Of a stretch of 63,260 nt of DNA, positions 587 to 62,000 are shown piece by piece (the stretch's first letter is position 1; every line of letters starts with the position of its first letter). The position numbers and the translations under genes were made by a program. The DNA is from Aplysia californica (taxonomy: Eukaryota). Below the pieces are notes generated by a model. That model ran no database searches, was not told the origin of the DNA, and worked only from the letters and a program-made list of their open reading frames with translations. Location of the stretch: positions 110,216-173,475 of the forward strand of contig NW_004797606.1 in assembly GCF_000002075.1 (NCBI RefSeq). Direction: 5' to 3'.

Positions 587-3500
587 CTGAGACCATAACA
601 TTAAAATGGAGGAGGGAACGTCAGGATGAATTTAAGATATATATTGTCTATCCTTTCCGTTACAACACATTCACAAACAGATTTCTTTCACCCGATATAA
701 TACATTAAATAAAACGACAAACATCATAATTATAGAGATGCCTATCTTTAAGTACTTAAATGTTATCAATCATTATTTTGAGTATGTGACGCACGTACCT
801 CAAATTTAACCATTTAAACCCAAACATGCATTTACCTGTGACTGGTACGAGAGGTACACTAAAACATCGCTTGTCCCCAAGCCTGTTTAGAAATCAAATG
901 GAAAAATCATATCAAATCCAATTACAAAGACACCTTGGCAGGATATTCAAAATAGAGGTAAAAACTCAAACCCTTTGAACCCTGGTCCCTTAAACCCATC
1001 AGGACCTGTGCTCCTGTGCTTCTTTGTGTCAACTGTTAGATTTTTACCGCAGCAGAAGGGTGAAAGTATAGTACGCTCAGATTTAAATCACAGTTTTGTA
1101 GATAAGAAAATAAATTATGTATTATCTTTCTATTACGAGCATAAACCTTCATTAATTTAAAATTCTCCAATAAAAAAGTTCATTACATGGTTTCCACCTT
1201 TCTGCACTTGAGATTTTCAATGCAGTTGCACAACAACAAAAAATTGATATGCCAATCTTATATTCTCACAGTTACGTGAGTCTTCACCTAGCCAGCAGAC
1301 TATATTTTACTGTTATAATTTCCTTGATCAATCATTTCCATACCGTGCTTGAAAGCATGTAGGAGTAGTGTCATTTGGAATGATGAGCACTTCTGTCTGA
1401 CACGCTCCAAATGACGTCACTGTGGTGTTGAAAAGATACACGTCTTTCCTGGAAGTCGTCAGGTCAGAACTGTGAGACAGAAAACCTCAGTTAAAGACCT
1501 TGCTCCAGATTAAATGACGTCATTGTAACACTCTTCATCTCCATCACAGACGATGTTTGATTCTCACTTGAAGATGATAATCTATTGAGTTCATCATTTT
1601 TTTGGACAGAAGAAAGTCCCCTAACACTATGGTTGGCCCTAGTGGAACGGGCTGGAGAAGCCTACTTTTTCAATTAATTAATTATGGGAGCTATATCTAT
1701 GTGGGTGTTAAACGTTTACAACGATTTTGCAACAACAACAAAATCTTGATCCGGCAAGCTGGAATGGCTGGCAAGTTATGACTATCCTTACATTAACTCC
1801 CCAAGGGCAATCCAGCAACATAACTTAAATAAAAGCATGAAAAGGACTGCGGCTAGATACTGAAGAAGTTAAAGAAACAAAAAAGTTTTGTTTCTACAAA
1901 TGCAAAAAAGCTTTTAAAAATTCAATGATTTTGAGCAAAAATCAGTACAGCCTTTATAATAAATGTGTCACACTGATGAAACTATCGTCAAAAGTGCAGA
2001 ATAGTGTATTATCTATTTATTTGTCACATCATTAATTCATTACCCTTTTACCTGTTCATCTTTACAAGGTAAGGCCAAAGAATTTACCAATACCTCTGCT
2101 CTATTTCCTTTTGGAAATCATTTCTATGAGAATGTAGTGTGTAAAATCTGGATTAAATCACATTTAAACTTTTGAAATAGTTCTCTTAAAAAGAATAATG
2201 TTTATACATCTCACAGGGAGAAATGTGTTTTGGTCATTCGTTTACAATAGCAGCGCATTTCAAAGATTATTTGCACTCATGTATACACACAAAATAAAAG
2301 ACATAAATGGTTAATGCTGAAACACCTCCGCTCGATAAACATTTACTTTCTTTTCTCTCCTTCTCCACATTATTTGTAGCACTGTGTGTTCAATAACCTC
2401 ACTGCACTTACTATAAAAATGAAATTCTTTTTCTGTCTGTTCTTACTTTCTCCAAAATAATTCGTTTACTGTTGATTGATAACTGACATTCTGATCTCCA
2501 CAGGTAGCTGTGCTACCAATATGACAAATAGCAGCAAAGATGCATAATAGATAGCATTTGTATAGCGCATATCCCCGCTCGACAGCAGGCTCTATGCGCT
2601 TTACACTATATTATTACCCCAGCAGAACATAGAACACTCCGAAACATTCTCAGCTTCCCGGGAAGCATACAGTTCAAGCAGCCGATTAAGCGCTCAAACA
2701 CTAACAAACTGACAAGATCTTTCGCTGTCTATAGCCGGGTACCCATTCCCACCTGGGTGAAGTGAGGAAATTCGTGTAAAGTGCCTTTCCCAAGGACACA
2801 ACGTCGGGCCCTTGACGGGATTCGAACCCACGACCTTACGGTTTAACAAATAACAACTGAGAAACACGATATAAATTCAGAGGGTAGGAACTGCACCCCC
2901 AGATGCAATCTGTATTTAAAAAATGGAGGATAACAAGGCAGTTTCTGTCAATTACCAGTTTCCAGAAGGATCTTGAGTTGTAGCCACAACCAAATGACAT
3001 CCTGAAGGGTCAGCACAGGGTAACTTGCTTCCATCAGGTGGAGTTGGGTACAAGAATTTAGTCTGTTTAAATGTAAATTCATTACAGGGTGAGTTAAAAA
3101 TTATGTTAACACTATCTGGGCAACACCAAACAGATAAGGTGTTGACCTCATTACACAGAATCTAAGTGGCGAATTTCTCTGATTTTTAGAATGCGCCTAT
3201 GAATTCTAAAACTAAAATTCCTAACATATCTTGATTTTTTAGCATACGTGACAAATATTAAAGAGGTGTTGTCTATATAGTCCCAGTGCAGGTCATAGGC
3301 AGACCCTTTCCCTCCCCTTCCTTCCTACATATATACATTTTTGAGCAACCTAAATAAATGCAAGTATCATTAATGGAAGTATATGCGTCTTTACATTTGT
3401 TATTTATCATTATCATCTATTATTATTTTTCTCAGTGAGAGCAAGATGTTCAAGGTCTTTATGTCAGTTCCAGTGTCCAAGAAACTGCATTTGTCTTTCT

Positions 3501-59000: not shown

Positions 59001-62000
59001 CTTCAGTATCCTTGGAAACTGAAAGTATAGGCTATATATTTTGGTGTCTGTTATCAAAGATTTTCCAGTAAAACCCACACAGATATTATGTGGTTTAAAT
59101 GGACTTAAATGCTGTGTCCCCTGAAAAAAAAAACTACAAAGTTTACTTAACGGCCAAAAAACAACAACAGTTTCTTCTATTTAAAAATTTTTTTTTGATG
59201 AGCCCCTGATTTCACCACAATGACATACATTAACTATTTCTTACACATAAGATAAGCTATCTAGAGATGGTCGTGCGTGCAAGGGTATGTGCAGAGTGGA
59301 CCCGGGATAAACATAGAAGGTTGCAACACGCATGCCTCCGGTTGTCACACACGGGGTTGGGCTCACGAATTCAGGAATAGTCAGATTGGCAACTGTCTGG
59401 ACCAGGAACTGGAAACGTACACAAGTTACTGTAATCAACTAACAAATAGCGATAGAAAGCCATAAAGCAGAAGTAACAATCCTAGGCAGAAACTCCAAAG
59501 CAAGAAGAAAAGTTTCATCGGCTCCACATACCTCTTAATCCCGCTAACCAATCCCAGACTATACTAGTACTATTTTGTGCATGTAGGGCCCATAGAAAAA
59601 TTACAACATTGTCACAATAAATGCCACTAAATGATGAAAAGCATGTCTTTTCTTTTACATGTAAGAAATATTGCTCATCATTACACCAGGTTAAGGTACT
59701 ATGTCTTGTGGTAAAGACCCCAAAGTGTNNNNNNNNNNNNNNNNNNNNNNNNNNNNNNNNNNNNNNNNNNNNNNNNNNNNNNNNNNNNNNNNNNNNNNNN
59801 NNNNNNNNNNNNNNNNNNNNNNNNNNNNNNNNNNNNNNNNNNNNNNNNNNNNNNNNNTCCCTCTTACTCTCCTACAGACATTTATATCGCCATGACTTTC
59901 CCCAAATTGCATAGTAAGGCACAGACAGTGTCCATGTGCTTCTGTACGGACGTACCTGTACTTGGGTGACACCAATGCTTGTCAAAGGTCTCACATTCAT
60001 GACACCTAAGCTGACTGCGTGCGGTGGTAGCTCGTCCACAATTAGATTCACGATACCCCAGTTTCCGTCATGGAAGTTGTCTGACTCATATGGTCGTATA
60101 ATAACTAGACACTTTATAAAGAGAAGAGGGAGGGATGCGTTAGAATGTATTTATTAAATTTTATATAGATATAGTGAGCTCATTAGACATACAACATAAC
60201 AATAAAATAGTAAAACTAATTGATCAGAGCCCACTTTCTCACAACCGTCATCACGGTGCATTGATATATTTGTCCTCTGTCCATATGAATCACAATATGA
60301 GCGAAAAAATTTTTGAAGTAAAGCTGCACTGAAGACAGTTAAAGCTAAAGATTGACAAATGATGATTTACTGACTAGACAAACTATTCCAACTAACATAG
60401 CACATTAAAAATAATCAATAAGGATAAACTTGGGTAGTGTATAACATAAGCCAACATTTTCAAAAAATATGTCATGGCTGTTGTCAATAATTCAATGATG
60501 GTTAATTTCAAAATTCGTTCACAGCACACGTAGGCTATAATTGTACCGTGTGACTCACCTCAGGGGTAACAATTGTGTTGTGCATCAGGCTAAGATCTCC
60601 GAGTTCGACCCAGCGTGCCGAGCGGCATTCTGTCTTGTCCCCATCTTTGTCTGTTGCTGTGATCGGAATCTGCGTTTCCTCGTTCAGTTTCACTCTTTTC
60701 AAAACATGGCAAAGGCAAGATTGATCATTTAAAAAATTGTTGCCAAATATGTTAATTCGGTTTCACTCTTTTCAGAACAAGGCAAAAGCAAGATTGATCA
60801 TTTGATTGACAAAGTGTTACCTAATATGTTCAATCCAATTAAGGTCTCACAAGCATTCAGGTTTAGTAATACAATTGAATTTCGCAAAAAGAAATTCAAG
60901 ATTAATTTTGGGTTTTTTGAAAGGTGCCAATAAAGGGCAAAACAGTTGAGAAGTTTCAAACAGTTTATCTTACTATAACACCCATAAGACCAAAAATTCA
61001 CTTTTAAAATAGACTTTCGATATAAACATGCTCCTCTCAAATAAAAGGAAGAAAATTATAAGAAAACAACTATCAAAATTTCACATACAAGGTCTTCATG
61101 TTCTATGTCTCCTGAATACACAAACTAGTAAGATACCTGTACACTGGTTTGTAGAGAACTAGAGGACTGTTGTTGGGTGCTTTTGTATCATTCCTTATTC
61201 CAGAATTGACTTTTTGCTGCAAGTGGAAGTTACAGCGATTTGAGACGTTGTCGGGCTTGCAATGCTGAAGCTCAACATCCATCCACGAGTCTCCTTCCAG
61301 CCTGACAGCAAAACGATAGGAAAGGAATCTAAATAGCTTCACATAGTTCAAACATCCGTTGTCGGATTTTTAGATGATATTATGTAGGTTACAGGCATCT
61401 GCGGTGCGCTTCGCTGTCGCACGCAGAAAAACCGAGTTCCATTCCCGAATAGGGAAATTTTTTTTACCGAGCATCTCGATCTTTCTGCTGAGATGGTGAT
61501 CCATCTCAGCCTGGGTTTTCGATGACAGGCAGATTCGGAAGCCTGCCTCCTACATGATCTAAATTGAGTCGATGTCGACGTAAAACACCTACATTTTAAG
61601 AAAATCTGGATAGTAGATCTGGTTTAACCACTTCAGGAGAATTCTTCTTTGCATTGTATCTGGACAGGGGCTTTGTGTGGATGAAAGAGGTGGGGGTTTT
61701 TTTGCAACACAAGTCTACTTGAAGGGAATTTCACTGCAATATCTTTTTATTTGTAGAATGTTTAATCGCCAAACACCCATTACAATTATAGGTAATTTCT
61801 TTTGATTGACTCTGTAAAATAAAAAAAATAAAAAAAATCAAGAGACAGGCAGAAGAGAAGTACATGTAGTTTGAAACAGACGAAGTGGGCATATTTCCAA
61901 ATATCTTGATTCACATTCACATGAAAATTGGAAGTAATCAATTCAAAACATTCCGGGAAAACACAACTGGACTCAAGAAAGATACGCAGAATGTATGAAC

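What the first reader, a model, noticed from the sequence alone, without database searches (positions are those of the whole stretch)
836..59408. Six copies of an unassigned ~90-130 aa domain encoded as a phase-symmetric exon module
Seen: R0-R5 are each encoded by three exons with phases 0>2, 2>2 and 2>1. R1-R5 are each preceded by a 26-56 nt Pro/Ser/Gly/Asp-rich linker exon with phases 1>0. The four-exon unit is therefore phase 1-1, the same class as the EGF exons. Shared pattern: F..P(T)P....(I/L/V)xC-x5-C..(V/I) ... CxQ/K ... CxxVx(V/L/I); R0 lacks most of the Cys. Established: phase 1-1 modules are the main units of exon shuffling in animal extracellular proteins. Inference: a mobile, probably beta-sandwich domain that may lack a Pfam model. 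R3 and R5 carry an extra Cys pair, one Cys of which is formed across a splice junction.
Basis: partly seen in the sequence, partly recalled or inferred. Interest (0 to 1): 0.7.

Follow-up and report, generated by a model that had tools for sequence, protein, structure and literature searches.

The report
Ig-like repeats in Sib-headed membrane mucin
The six repeats are real spliced copies of one predicted immunoglobulin-like domain that Pfam does not recognise in animals, lying in a large sea-hare gene for a likely membrane-anchored mucin whose family shares its front end with amoeba Sib adhesion receptors and microbial surface proteins; the copies likely arose by ordinary tandem duplication inside this one family.

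Summary
Observation confirmed. On the minus strand all 18 repeat exons and 5 linkers have AG/GT ends and the stated phases; a spliced contig supports the chain through R0 and R1. The gene (Aplysia californica, RefSeq fragment LOC106012338) is predicted to encode head – R0 – R1 – EGF×3 – [A – B – EGF×2]n – Thr-rich stalk – transmembrane segment. All six repeats fit one profile, and all four types fold as Ig-like beta-sandwiches in AlphaFold models of homologs. Animal copies get no Pfam hit, but the same position in two microbial relatives passes the He_PIG cut-off. The repeat is the third domain of a three-domain head whose first two domains match Pfam's Dictyostelium Sib models in relatives. 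The family spans sponge, molluscs, prawn, sea star and fish. The three-exon 0/2/2/1 layout recurs in distant paralogs; the 1>0 linker exon turns it into a 1-1 unit. No stand-alone copy in an unrelated gene was found (head-biased search). A real, uncurated Ig-like domain amplified by tandem duplication: not a new fold, not shown to be mobile.

The parts
59956..62922 (-). Four exons of the Sib-like head: 62922-62753 (0>2), 61301-61137 (2>2), 60694-60559 (2>0), 60111-59956 (0>0); carry the NNSP…D-x-DGD…CR motif of the second Ig domain. Signal-peptide exon(s) lie upstream and were not found.
56830..59408 (-). R0, ancestral-type repeat: 59408-59245 (0>2), 58374-58192 (2>2), 56870-56830 (2>1); no linker exon
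56214..56245 (-). Linker exon L1, 32 nt, 1>0
48644..55190 (-). R1: 55190-55090, 53856-53680, 48687-48644
46655..47738 (-). Three EGF exons, each 1>1: 47738-47619, 47298-47173 (four Cys), 46768-46655
42362..42387 (-). Linker exon L2, 26 nt, 1>0
27013..29502 (-). R2 (type A): 29502-29399, 28198-28025, 27059-27013
23188..23231 (-). Linker exon L3, 44 nt, 1>0
19681..21744 (-). R3 (type B, six Cys): 21744-21638, 21086-20964, 19727-19681
15633..17794 (-). Two EGF exons, each 1>1: 17794-17663, 15743-15633
14808..14833 (-). Linker exon L4, 26 nt, 1>0
10490..13126 (-). R4 (type A): 13126-13023, 12077-11904, 10536-10490
9974..10029 (-). Linker exon L5, 56 nt, 1>0
5644..8288 (-).
836..3062 (-). R5 (type B, six Cys): 3062-2956, 1469-1344, 882-836; gene continues beyond the window

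Best explanation
R0-R5 are copies of one predicted Ig-like beta-sandwich domain, related to He_PIG/cadherin-like domains, that likely act as rigid disulfide-braced spacers in a large, likely membrane-anchored mucin-type surface protein, and they likely multiplied by nested tandem duplication within this gene family. Shown: exon structure, phases, homology of the six copies, downstream Thr-rich exon and hydrophobic exon, family distribution. Predicted: fold (models of homologs), disulfides C1-C2, C3-C4 and the type-B pair. Inferred history: the ancestral third head domain R0 was already three exons (0/2/2/1) but asymmetric; in a mollusc ancestor a copy gained a short 1>0 exon in front, making it a 1-1 unit compatible with EGF exons; R1, A and B arose, the unit [linker-A-linker-B-EGF-EGF] predates the snail-bivalve split, and it was duplicated again recently in Aplysia. 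Inferred function: the Sib-like head is the binding end, and the Ig/EGF rod and glycosylated Thr stalk hold it away from the cell for adhesion or surface-coat roles.
For: Exons and phases; spliced contig. One profile. Folds: intronless paralog model pLDDT 88.9, R0 and R1 match Ig/cadherin/PKD/Siglec-like domains at Z 8-9.4, rmsd 2.0-3.7 over 84-107 residues; homolog P0029 model, A matches cadherin-23 EC1 (Z 8.5, rmsd 3.5, 98 aligned), B matches SbsC/obscurin Ig (Z 7.8-8.1, rmsd 2.2-3.2, 81 aligned). He_PIG over cut-off (25.5 and 27.2 bits vs 24) at the place where the animal profile hits P0110 and P0175; profile-profile 85%, 91 columns; ESM Atlas leads point the same way. Cys co-occurrence in 166 domains: C1/C2 74 both, 2 one only; C5/C6 24 both, 3 one only. 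Same phases in paralogs on C20 and C561. Tree: Aplysia A with bivalve A (96/87), B with B (99/94), all duplicates apart from R0-type (100/97). Thr-rich 1>1 exon of 2391 nt and a C-x-C + Gly-rich hydrophobic exon downstream, the latter matching bivalve C-termini at 22 bits, next best 10.
Against: No model is of the window's own spliced repeats. Z values of 7-9 do not single out one Ig superfamily. A profile of R1-R5 alone does not align to the microbial third domains (probability 0.15), and the animal profile also matches the last 28 columns of HYR repeats (89%), so the He_PIG link is transitive. The tree has only 115 columns for 88 rows. The origin of the linker exon is not testable from these diverged sequences. 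RNA support stops at EGF3; that R2-R5, the stalk and the membrane exon belong to the same transcript is inferred. No functional data exist in anything I read.
Confidence: 0.78

Rival explanations
1. The linker+three-exon unit is a true mobile class 1-1 module that has been shuffled into unrelated animal proteins.
For: It has the right phases and fold class; relatives combine the family with MAM, NIDO/AMOP, ZP, Sushi, TIL, chitin-binding and EGF domains; ESM Atlas lists unnamed 108-140 aa rotifer clusters (0.91-0.95) whose context is unknown.
Against: In those chimeras the whole three-domain head travels with the repeat. Five single-exon or single-domain searches of the own genome found only this family's loci, though such searches see only close relatives.
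Confidence: 0.2
2. The repeats are calcium-binding cadherin repeats of an atypical cadherin.
For: Cadherin EC domains are among the top structural matches.
Against: No DRE or DxND motif in 6 of 6 repeats and only scattered DxD (motifs recalled from knowledge); no cadherin Pfam hit on animal members; Ig I-set, PKD and integrin hybrid domains tie in Z.
Confidence: 0.05
3. Part of the repeat array (R4, R4', R5 and their downstream twins) is an assembly artefact, allelic copies placed in tandem.
For: 100-N gaps separate the copies, the exon order across them breaks the phase chain (L5 ends in phase 0, next linker starts in phase 1), and contig C2298 repeats parts of the window at 98-99%.
Against: R4, R4' and the downstream twin differ by 5-15% in introns, far more than the 1-2% of the C2298 match; R0-R3 and the farthest A/B pair are old and unique.
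Confidence: 0.15

Closest known systems
He_PIG putative Ig domain (PF05345) and related cadherin-like/Big_9 domains
   Same: Same position in microbial relatives passes the Pfam cut-off (P0110, P0175); same predicted seven-strand sandwich; animal profile scores 17-28 bits on the third domain of 5 of 10 head-bearing microbial proteins and 11-13 on 3 more.
   Different: Animal copies score below any Pfam threshold, carry one to three Cys pairs and are split over three exons.
Dictyostelium SibA-E adhesion receptors (Pfam SIBA-E_N PF24907, Ig_SIBA-E_2nd PF24908)
   Same: Bivalve relatives pass the SIBA-E_N cut-off (P0123 31.8, P0053 28.4, P0074 39 bits vs 28.1) and RefSeq names some 'integrin beta-like protein A/C'; type I layout with a Gly-rich membrane segment.
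   Different: The Aplysia proteins themselves do not reach these models; no VWA domain seen; tail with NPXY not found; no Sib sequence was compared directly, and Ig_SIBA-E_3rd was not seen on the repeat.
Class 1-1 exon modules (EGF, Ig, FN3) of Patthy's modularization model
   Same: Phase-1 introns on both sides of linker+domain, mainly-beta extracellular fold, tandem duplication next to 1-1 EGF exons.
   Different: Symmetry comes from a separate 1>0 micro-exon in front of an originally 0>1 domain; stand-alone spread to unrelated genes not shown.
Membrane-tethered mucins (MUC4-like layout)
   Same: Single large Thr/Pro exon, EGFs, predicted membrane segment; a sponge relative joins the head to NIDO and AMOP.
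   Different: No SEA, NIDO, AMOP or VWD in this gene; stalk lies next to the membrane, behind the Ig/EGF rod.

Membership tests
Class 1-1 exon module | Phase-1 introns at both ends of the unit | tested here: met
   5 of 5 linker+abc units; R0 alone is 0>1
Class 1-1 exon module | Tandem duplication of the intact unit | tested here: met
   11 full or partial copies on C336 with the same internal phases
Class 1-1 exon module | Occurs on its own in otherwise unrelated genes | tested here: inconclusive
   None among 97 sequences, but these were found with a head-containing query
He_PIG (PF05345) | Score above the Pfam cut-off | tested here: not met
   No hit on window exons, P0001 or the intronless paralog; 2 of 71 family members at E≤0.5, one of them the microbial-type P0110, the other not identified. 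The window's spliced repeats could not be scanned whole.
He_PIG (PF05345) | Ig-like beta-sandwich homologous to He_PIG-positive domains | tested here: met
   (transitive, through the family profile)
Cadherin repeat | Calcium-binding DRE / DxND / DxD motifs (recalled) | tested here: not met
Dictyostelium Sib family | SIBA-E_N and second Ig head domains | tested here: inconclusive
   Over cut-off in 3 bivalve relatives and microbial relatives, not in the Aplysia paralog; genome searches with PF24908 and PF24910 found nothing
Dictyostelium Sib family | Extracellular VWA domain | tested here: not met
   No VWA hit in the paralog or in the mollusc orthologs scanned
Dictyostelium Sib family | Cytoplasmic NPXY motifs binding talin | not testable with these tools
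   The exon after the membrane exon was not found
Membrane-tethered mucin | Large Pro/Thr/Ser tandem-repeat exon | tested here: met
   Open frame of 808 codons with 420 Thr and 106 Pro, 1>1 exon, beyond the window
Membrane-tethered mucin | Single membrane segment in the same transcript | tested here: inconclusive

The most novel reading that the evidence does not exclude
Animals from sponges to fish keep an unstudied family of surface proteins tipped with the same three-domain head as amoeba SibA adhesion receptors and giant microbial surface proteins, a pre-animal adhesion device; in molluscs its third domain was turned from an asymmetric 0>1 domain into a duplicable 1-1 module by recruiting a micro-exon adaptor, a route to modularization other than intron insertion at domain borders, caught before it spread to other genes.
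Probability: 0.45. Interest if true: 0.6.

Novelty: new variant of a known kind. Interest (0 to 1): 0.38.

Why it matters
It gives a buildable domain model for an animal Ig-like family that Pfam misses (169 domains in 98 sequences here) and a corrected gene model where RefSeq has a 169-aa fragment. It offers a case in which the steps of module formation can be compared within one genome (single asymmetric copy, linker-equipped duplicates, intronless copy). It also flags an animal family with a Sib-like head, while the papers read here describe Sib as confined to dictyostelids; database names and Pfam hits already hint at the link, so the surprise is moderate.

Tried and rejected
Pfam on 21 single exons gave only EGF hits; NCBIfam on 7 proteins gave nothing; PDB sequence searches gave nothing for head or repeats, only EGF leakage. 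Word-based homolog search with the paralog found none among 7993 candidates; the exhaustive search did. Foldseek on the four-domain model returned generic multi-Ig chains with TM 0.11-0.18 and was not used. The search meant to reach Dictyostelium Sib proteins returned 15 proteins, none named as Sib. No RNA holder was listed as such; raw-read run X14 had almost no depth on the exons and X7 showed no exon piece among the rows shown, no evidence either way. A candidate exon at 18540-18505 was rejected because the twin EGF exon downstream has the same 132-nt length without it. Signal-peptide exons and the cytoplasmic tail exon were not found; a tblastx comparison was swamped by repeats. Third exon of the farthest A copy and R0b of the C20 paralog were not found. 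Earlier scan notes: three look-ups, nothing. Literature: searches for the locus name (0 papers), 'integrin beta-like protein' (41 papers, 30 listed titles, none on this family) and searches showed no paper on the animal family by title or abstract start; subscription journals, and the original SibA paper (not held), were not seen, and bioRxiv supplements are closed.
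Full report
Observation. The gene is on the minus strand. Read through with the four head exons and five EGF exons, the chain gives 1110 codons with no stop; the extra cysteine of R3 and R5 is built across the first junction. A 3038-nt contig from run X4 lies exactly on seven listed exons from the head to EGF2, and its two unlisted gaps, 164 and 175 nt, equal the small exons predicted there; run X5 adds pieces on EGF1 and EGF3. 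The middle exon of R1 is identical to part of a 169-aa RefSeq fragment, LOC106012338 of Aplysia californica.

More copies. A partial seventh copy (R4') sits between R4 and R5, and beyond the window lie a further A and B twin, two EGFs, an older A/B pair and one EGF: 11 full or partial copies in all. The R4/R5 twins are 85-95% alike in DNA, introns included, and are separated by 100-N gaps; small contig C2298 matches parts of the window at 98-99% with the order B, EGF, EGF, A. This reads as a recent tandem array of [linker-A-linker-B-EGF-EGF] that the assembly has not resolved. After the last EGF come a 2391-nt 1>1 exon (420 Thr and 106 Pro in an 808-codon frame), a candidate 38-nt 1>0 exon, and a 0>2 exon with C-x-C and a Gly-rich hydrophobic stretch that matches the C-termini of three bivalve homologs at 22 bits, next best 10. 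The product is therefore likely a type I membrane mucin-like protein; this joining is inferred.

Family. The genome holds four paralogs: one on C20 with the same exon lengths and phases through R1 and the EGFs (5 of 6 repeat exons found), two distant ones on C561 with one repeat each, and an intronless 827-codon copy on C232 with a signal-peptide-like start. The intronless copy allowed whole-domain searches. It found 169 relatives at E≤0.001, 150 listed. Of 20 looked up, 19 carry names: snails, bivalves, a calcareous sponge, a prawn, a sea star and two teleosts; two bivalve ones are called 'integrin beta-like protein C' and one 'A'. A profile seeded with R1-R5 collected 169 domains in 98 sequences and picked up the unseeded R0 at 51 bits. 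Rebuilt from 166 non-Aplysia domains it scores R0-R5 at 36-62 bits against ≤3.1 for reversed copies; the set was grown from R1-R5, so only R0 is a fully independent test.

What the domain is. AlphaFold models of the paralog (pLDDT 88.9) and of homolog P0029 (78.0), which together hold R0, R1, A and B types, show the same seven-to-eight-strand sandwich in each. Structural matches are cadherin, Ig I-set, PKD, Siglec-like and integrin hybrid domains, tied at Z 7-9.4: an Ig-like fold, no single closest family. Pfam gives no hit over cut-off on any animal copy in 106 protein scans (28, 42 and 36 proteins) or on the paralog. But relatives show the head: SIBA-E_N over cut-off in three bivalve proteins, and in unnamed metagenome protein P0110 the order SIBA-E_N, Ig_SIBA-E_2nd, He_PIG, all over cut-off. 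The animal profile hits exactly that He_PIG stretch in P0110 and P0175 and the third domain of other head-bearing microbial proteins (17-28 bits in 5 of 10; reversed maximum 5.2). Profile against profile gives 85% over 91 columns; PKD gives none; HYR gives 89% over 28 columns only; a profile of R1-R5 alone fails. So the link to He_PIG is real but runs through the family. Cadherin calcium motifs (recalled) are absent. Cysteines come in pairs across 166 of 173 rows (7 gappy rows dropped): C1/C2 74 both and 2 single, C5/C6 24 both and 3 single, C3/C4 135 both and 25 single; kinship inflates these counts.

How the module arose. The C561 paralogs have the same phases in three head exons and 0>2, 2>2, 2>1 in their single repeat, followed directly by EGF exons (predicted from splice signals, and a weaker 0/0 pairing of the first junction also keeps the frame). 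So the three-exon layout is old and asymmetric. Only duplicates have the 1>0 linker. In a tree of 88 domains (21 homologs of 98, rows under 85 aa left out, 115 columns) all non-mollusc domains group with R0, the duplicates form one group (100/97), and Aplysia A and B join bivalve A (96/87) and B (99/94). The inferred order is R0, then linker-equipped duplicates, then the A-B-EGF unit before snails and bivalves split, then recent expansion. Whether the linker is a remnant of the preceding head exon or a new exon cannot be told. Of 177 repeat hits in 97 sequences, 96 follow the head, 74 follow other repeats or EGFs, and 7 are fragments, a missed R0 or Thr-rich insertions in the head. What is shuffled onto ZP, Sushi, NIDO or MAM proteins is the whole head. 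The search was head-biased, so stand-alone mobility stays open.

Comparison with print. Patthy's review (PMC8001218, passages read) states that shuffled modules are class 1-1, mainly beta, and arise by intron insertion at domain borders. Passages of PMC9197732, PMC9453864, PMC2651865, PMC12686525 and bioRxiv 10.1101/2020.04.29.069435 describe SibA as a type I adhesion receptor with VWA, Gly-rich membrane segment and NPXY motifs, and three of them call it amoebozoan- or dictyostelid-specific. None of the passages mentions animal proteins with its head; nine paper searches (listings only) showed none on this family. RefSeq names and Pfam already register the likeness.

Verdict. Real and accurately read. 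The domain is an uncurated animal variant of the He_PIG/Ig-like type, amplified by textbook phase-symmetric tandem duplication; the adaptor micro-exon and the Sib-like head are the points of interest. Function is inferred from architecture only. Interest 0.38.

Noticed in passing
L022:6360-8843 (G000:C232:270360-272843, +): Intact intronless paralog, 827 codons: signal-like start, head, R0, R1, three EGFs, C-terminal Ig-like segment; likely a retrocopy. Elysia P0006 has a similar layout.
   Followed up: partly
G000:C336:84244-86634 (-), in L009: 2391-nt Thr/Pro tandem-repeat exon, phase 1>1, followed by a predicted membrane exon at 80843-81036.
   Followed up: partly
G000:C561:193600-278600 (-), L051-L059: Two tandem distant paralogs with head, one repeat and many Ca-binding-type EGF exons; their repeat middle exons are nearly identical.
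   Followed up: partly
L032/L061 (G000:C2298): 13-kb contig that repeats parts of the window at 98-99% and holds one more diverged A copy; likely an unplaced piece of the array.
   Followed up: partly
window 23916-25382 (-): Intronic non-LTR retroelement remnant with reverse transcriptase and RNase H.
   Followed up: partly
window 40846-41406 (-): RNase H fragment of another retroelement.
   Followed up: partly
window 50600-51795 (+): Broken element with a GIY-YIG hit just under cut-off, Penelope-like by recall; related copies appear in transcript contigs.
   Followed up: partly
window 35078-37800 (+): Two broken copies of a DNA-transposase-like sequence (hAT/ZBED-like by recall; no Pfam hit on three pieces) in the 13-kb intron between L2 and R2.
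   Followed up: partly
window 16573-17056: Short convergent frames resembling a Harbinger-type element (recall; no Pfam hit).
   Followed up: no
window 43500-44050, 53950-54000: Very high-copy short interspersed repeats, heavily covered in all four runs laid.
   Followed up: no
P0022, P0074, P0095, P0075, P0144: Killifish protein with three tandem heads; head inserted twice in a Sushi-rich clam protein; long Thr-rich insertions inside the second head domain of ZP-bearing members.
   Followed up: partly
L022:978-1955: Intronless alpha/beta hydrolase frame upstream of the intronless paralog.
   Followed up: no
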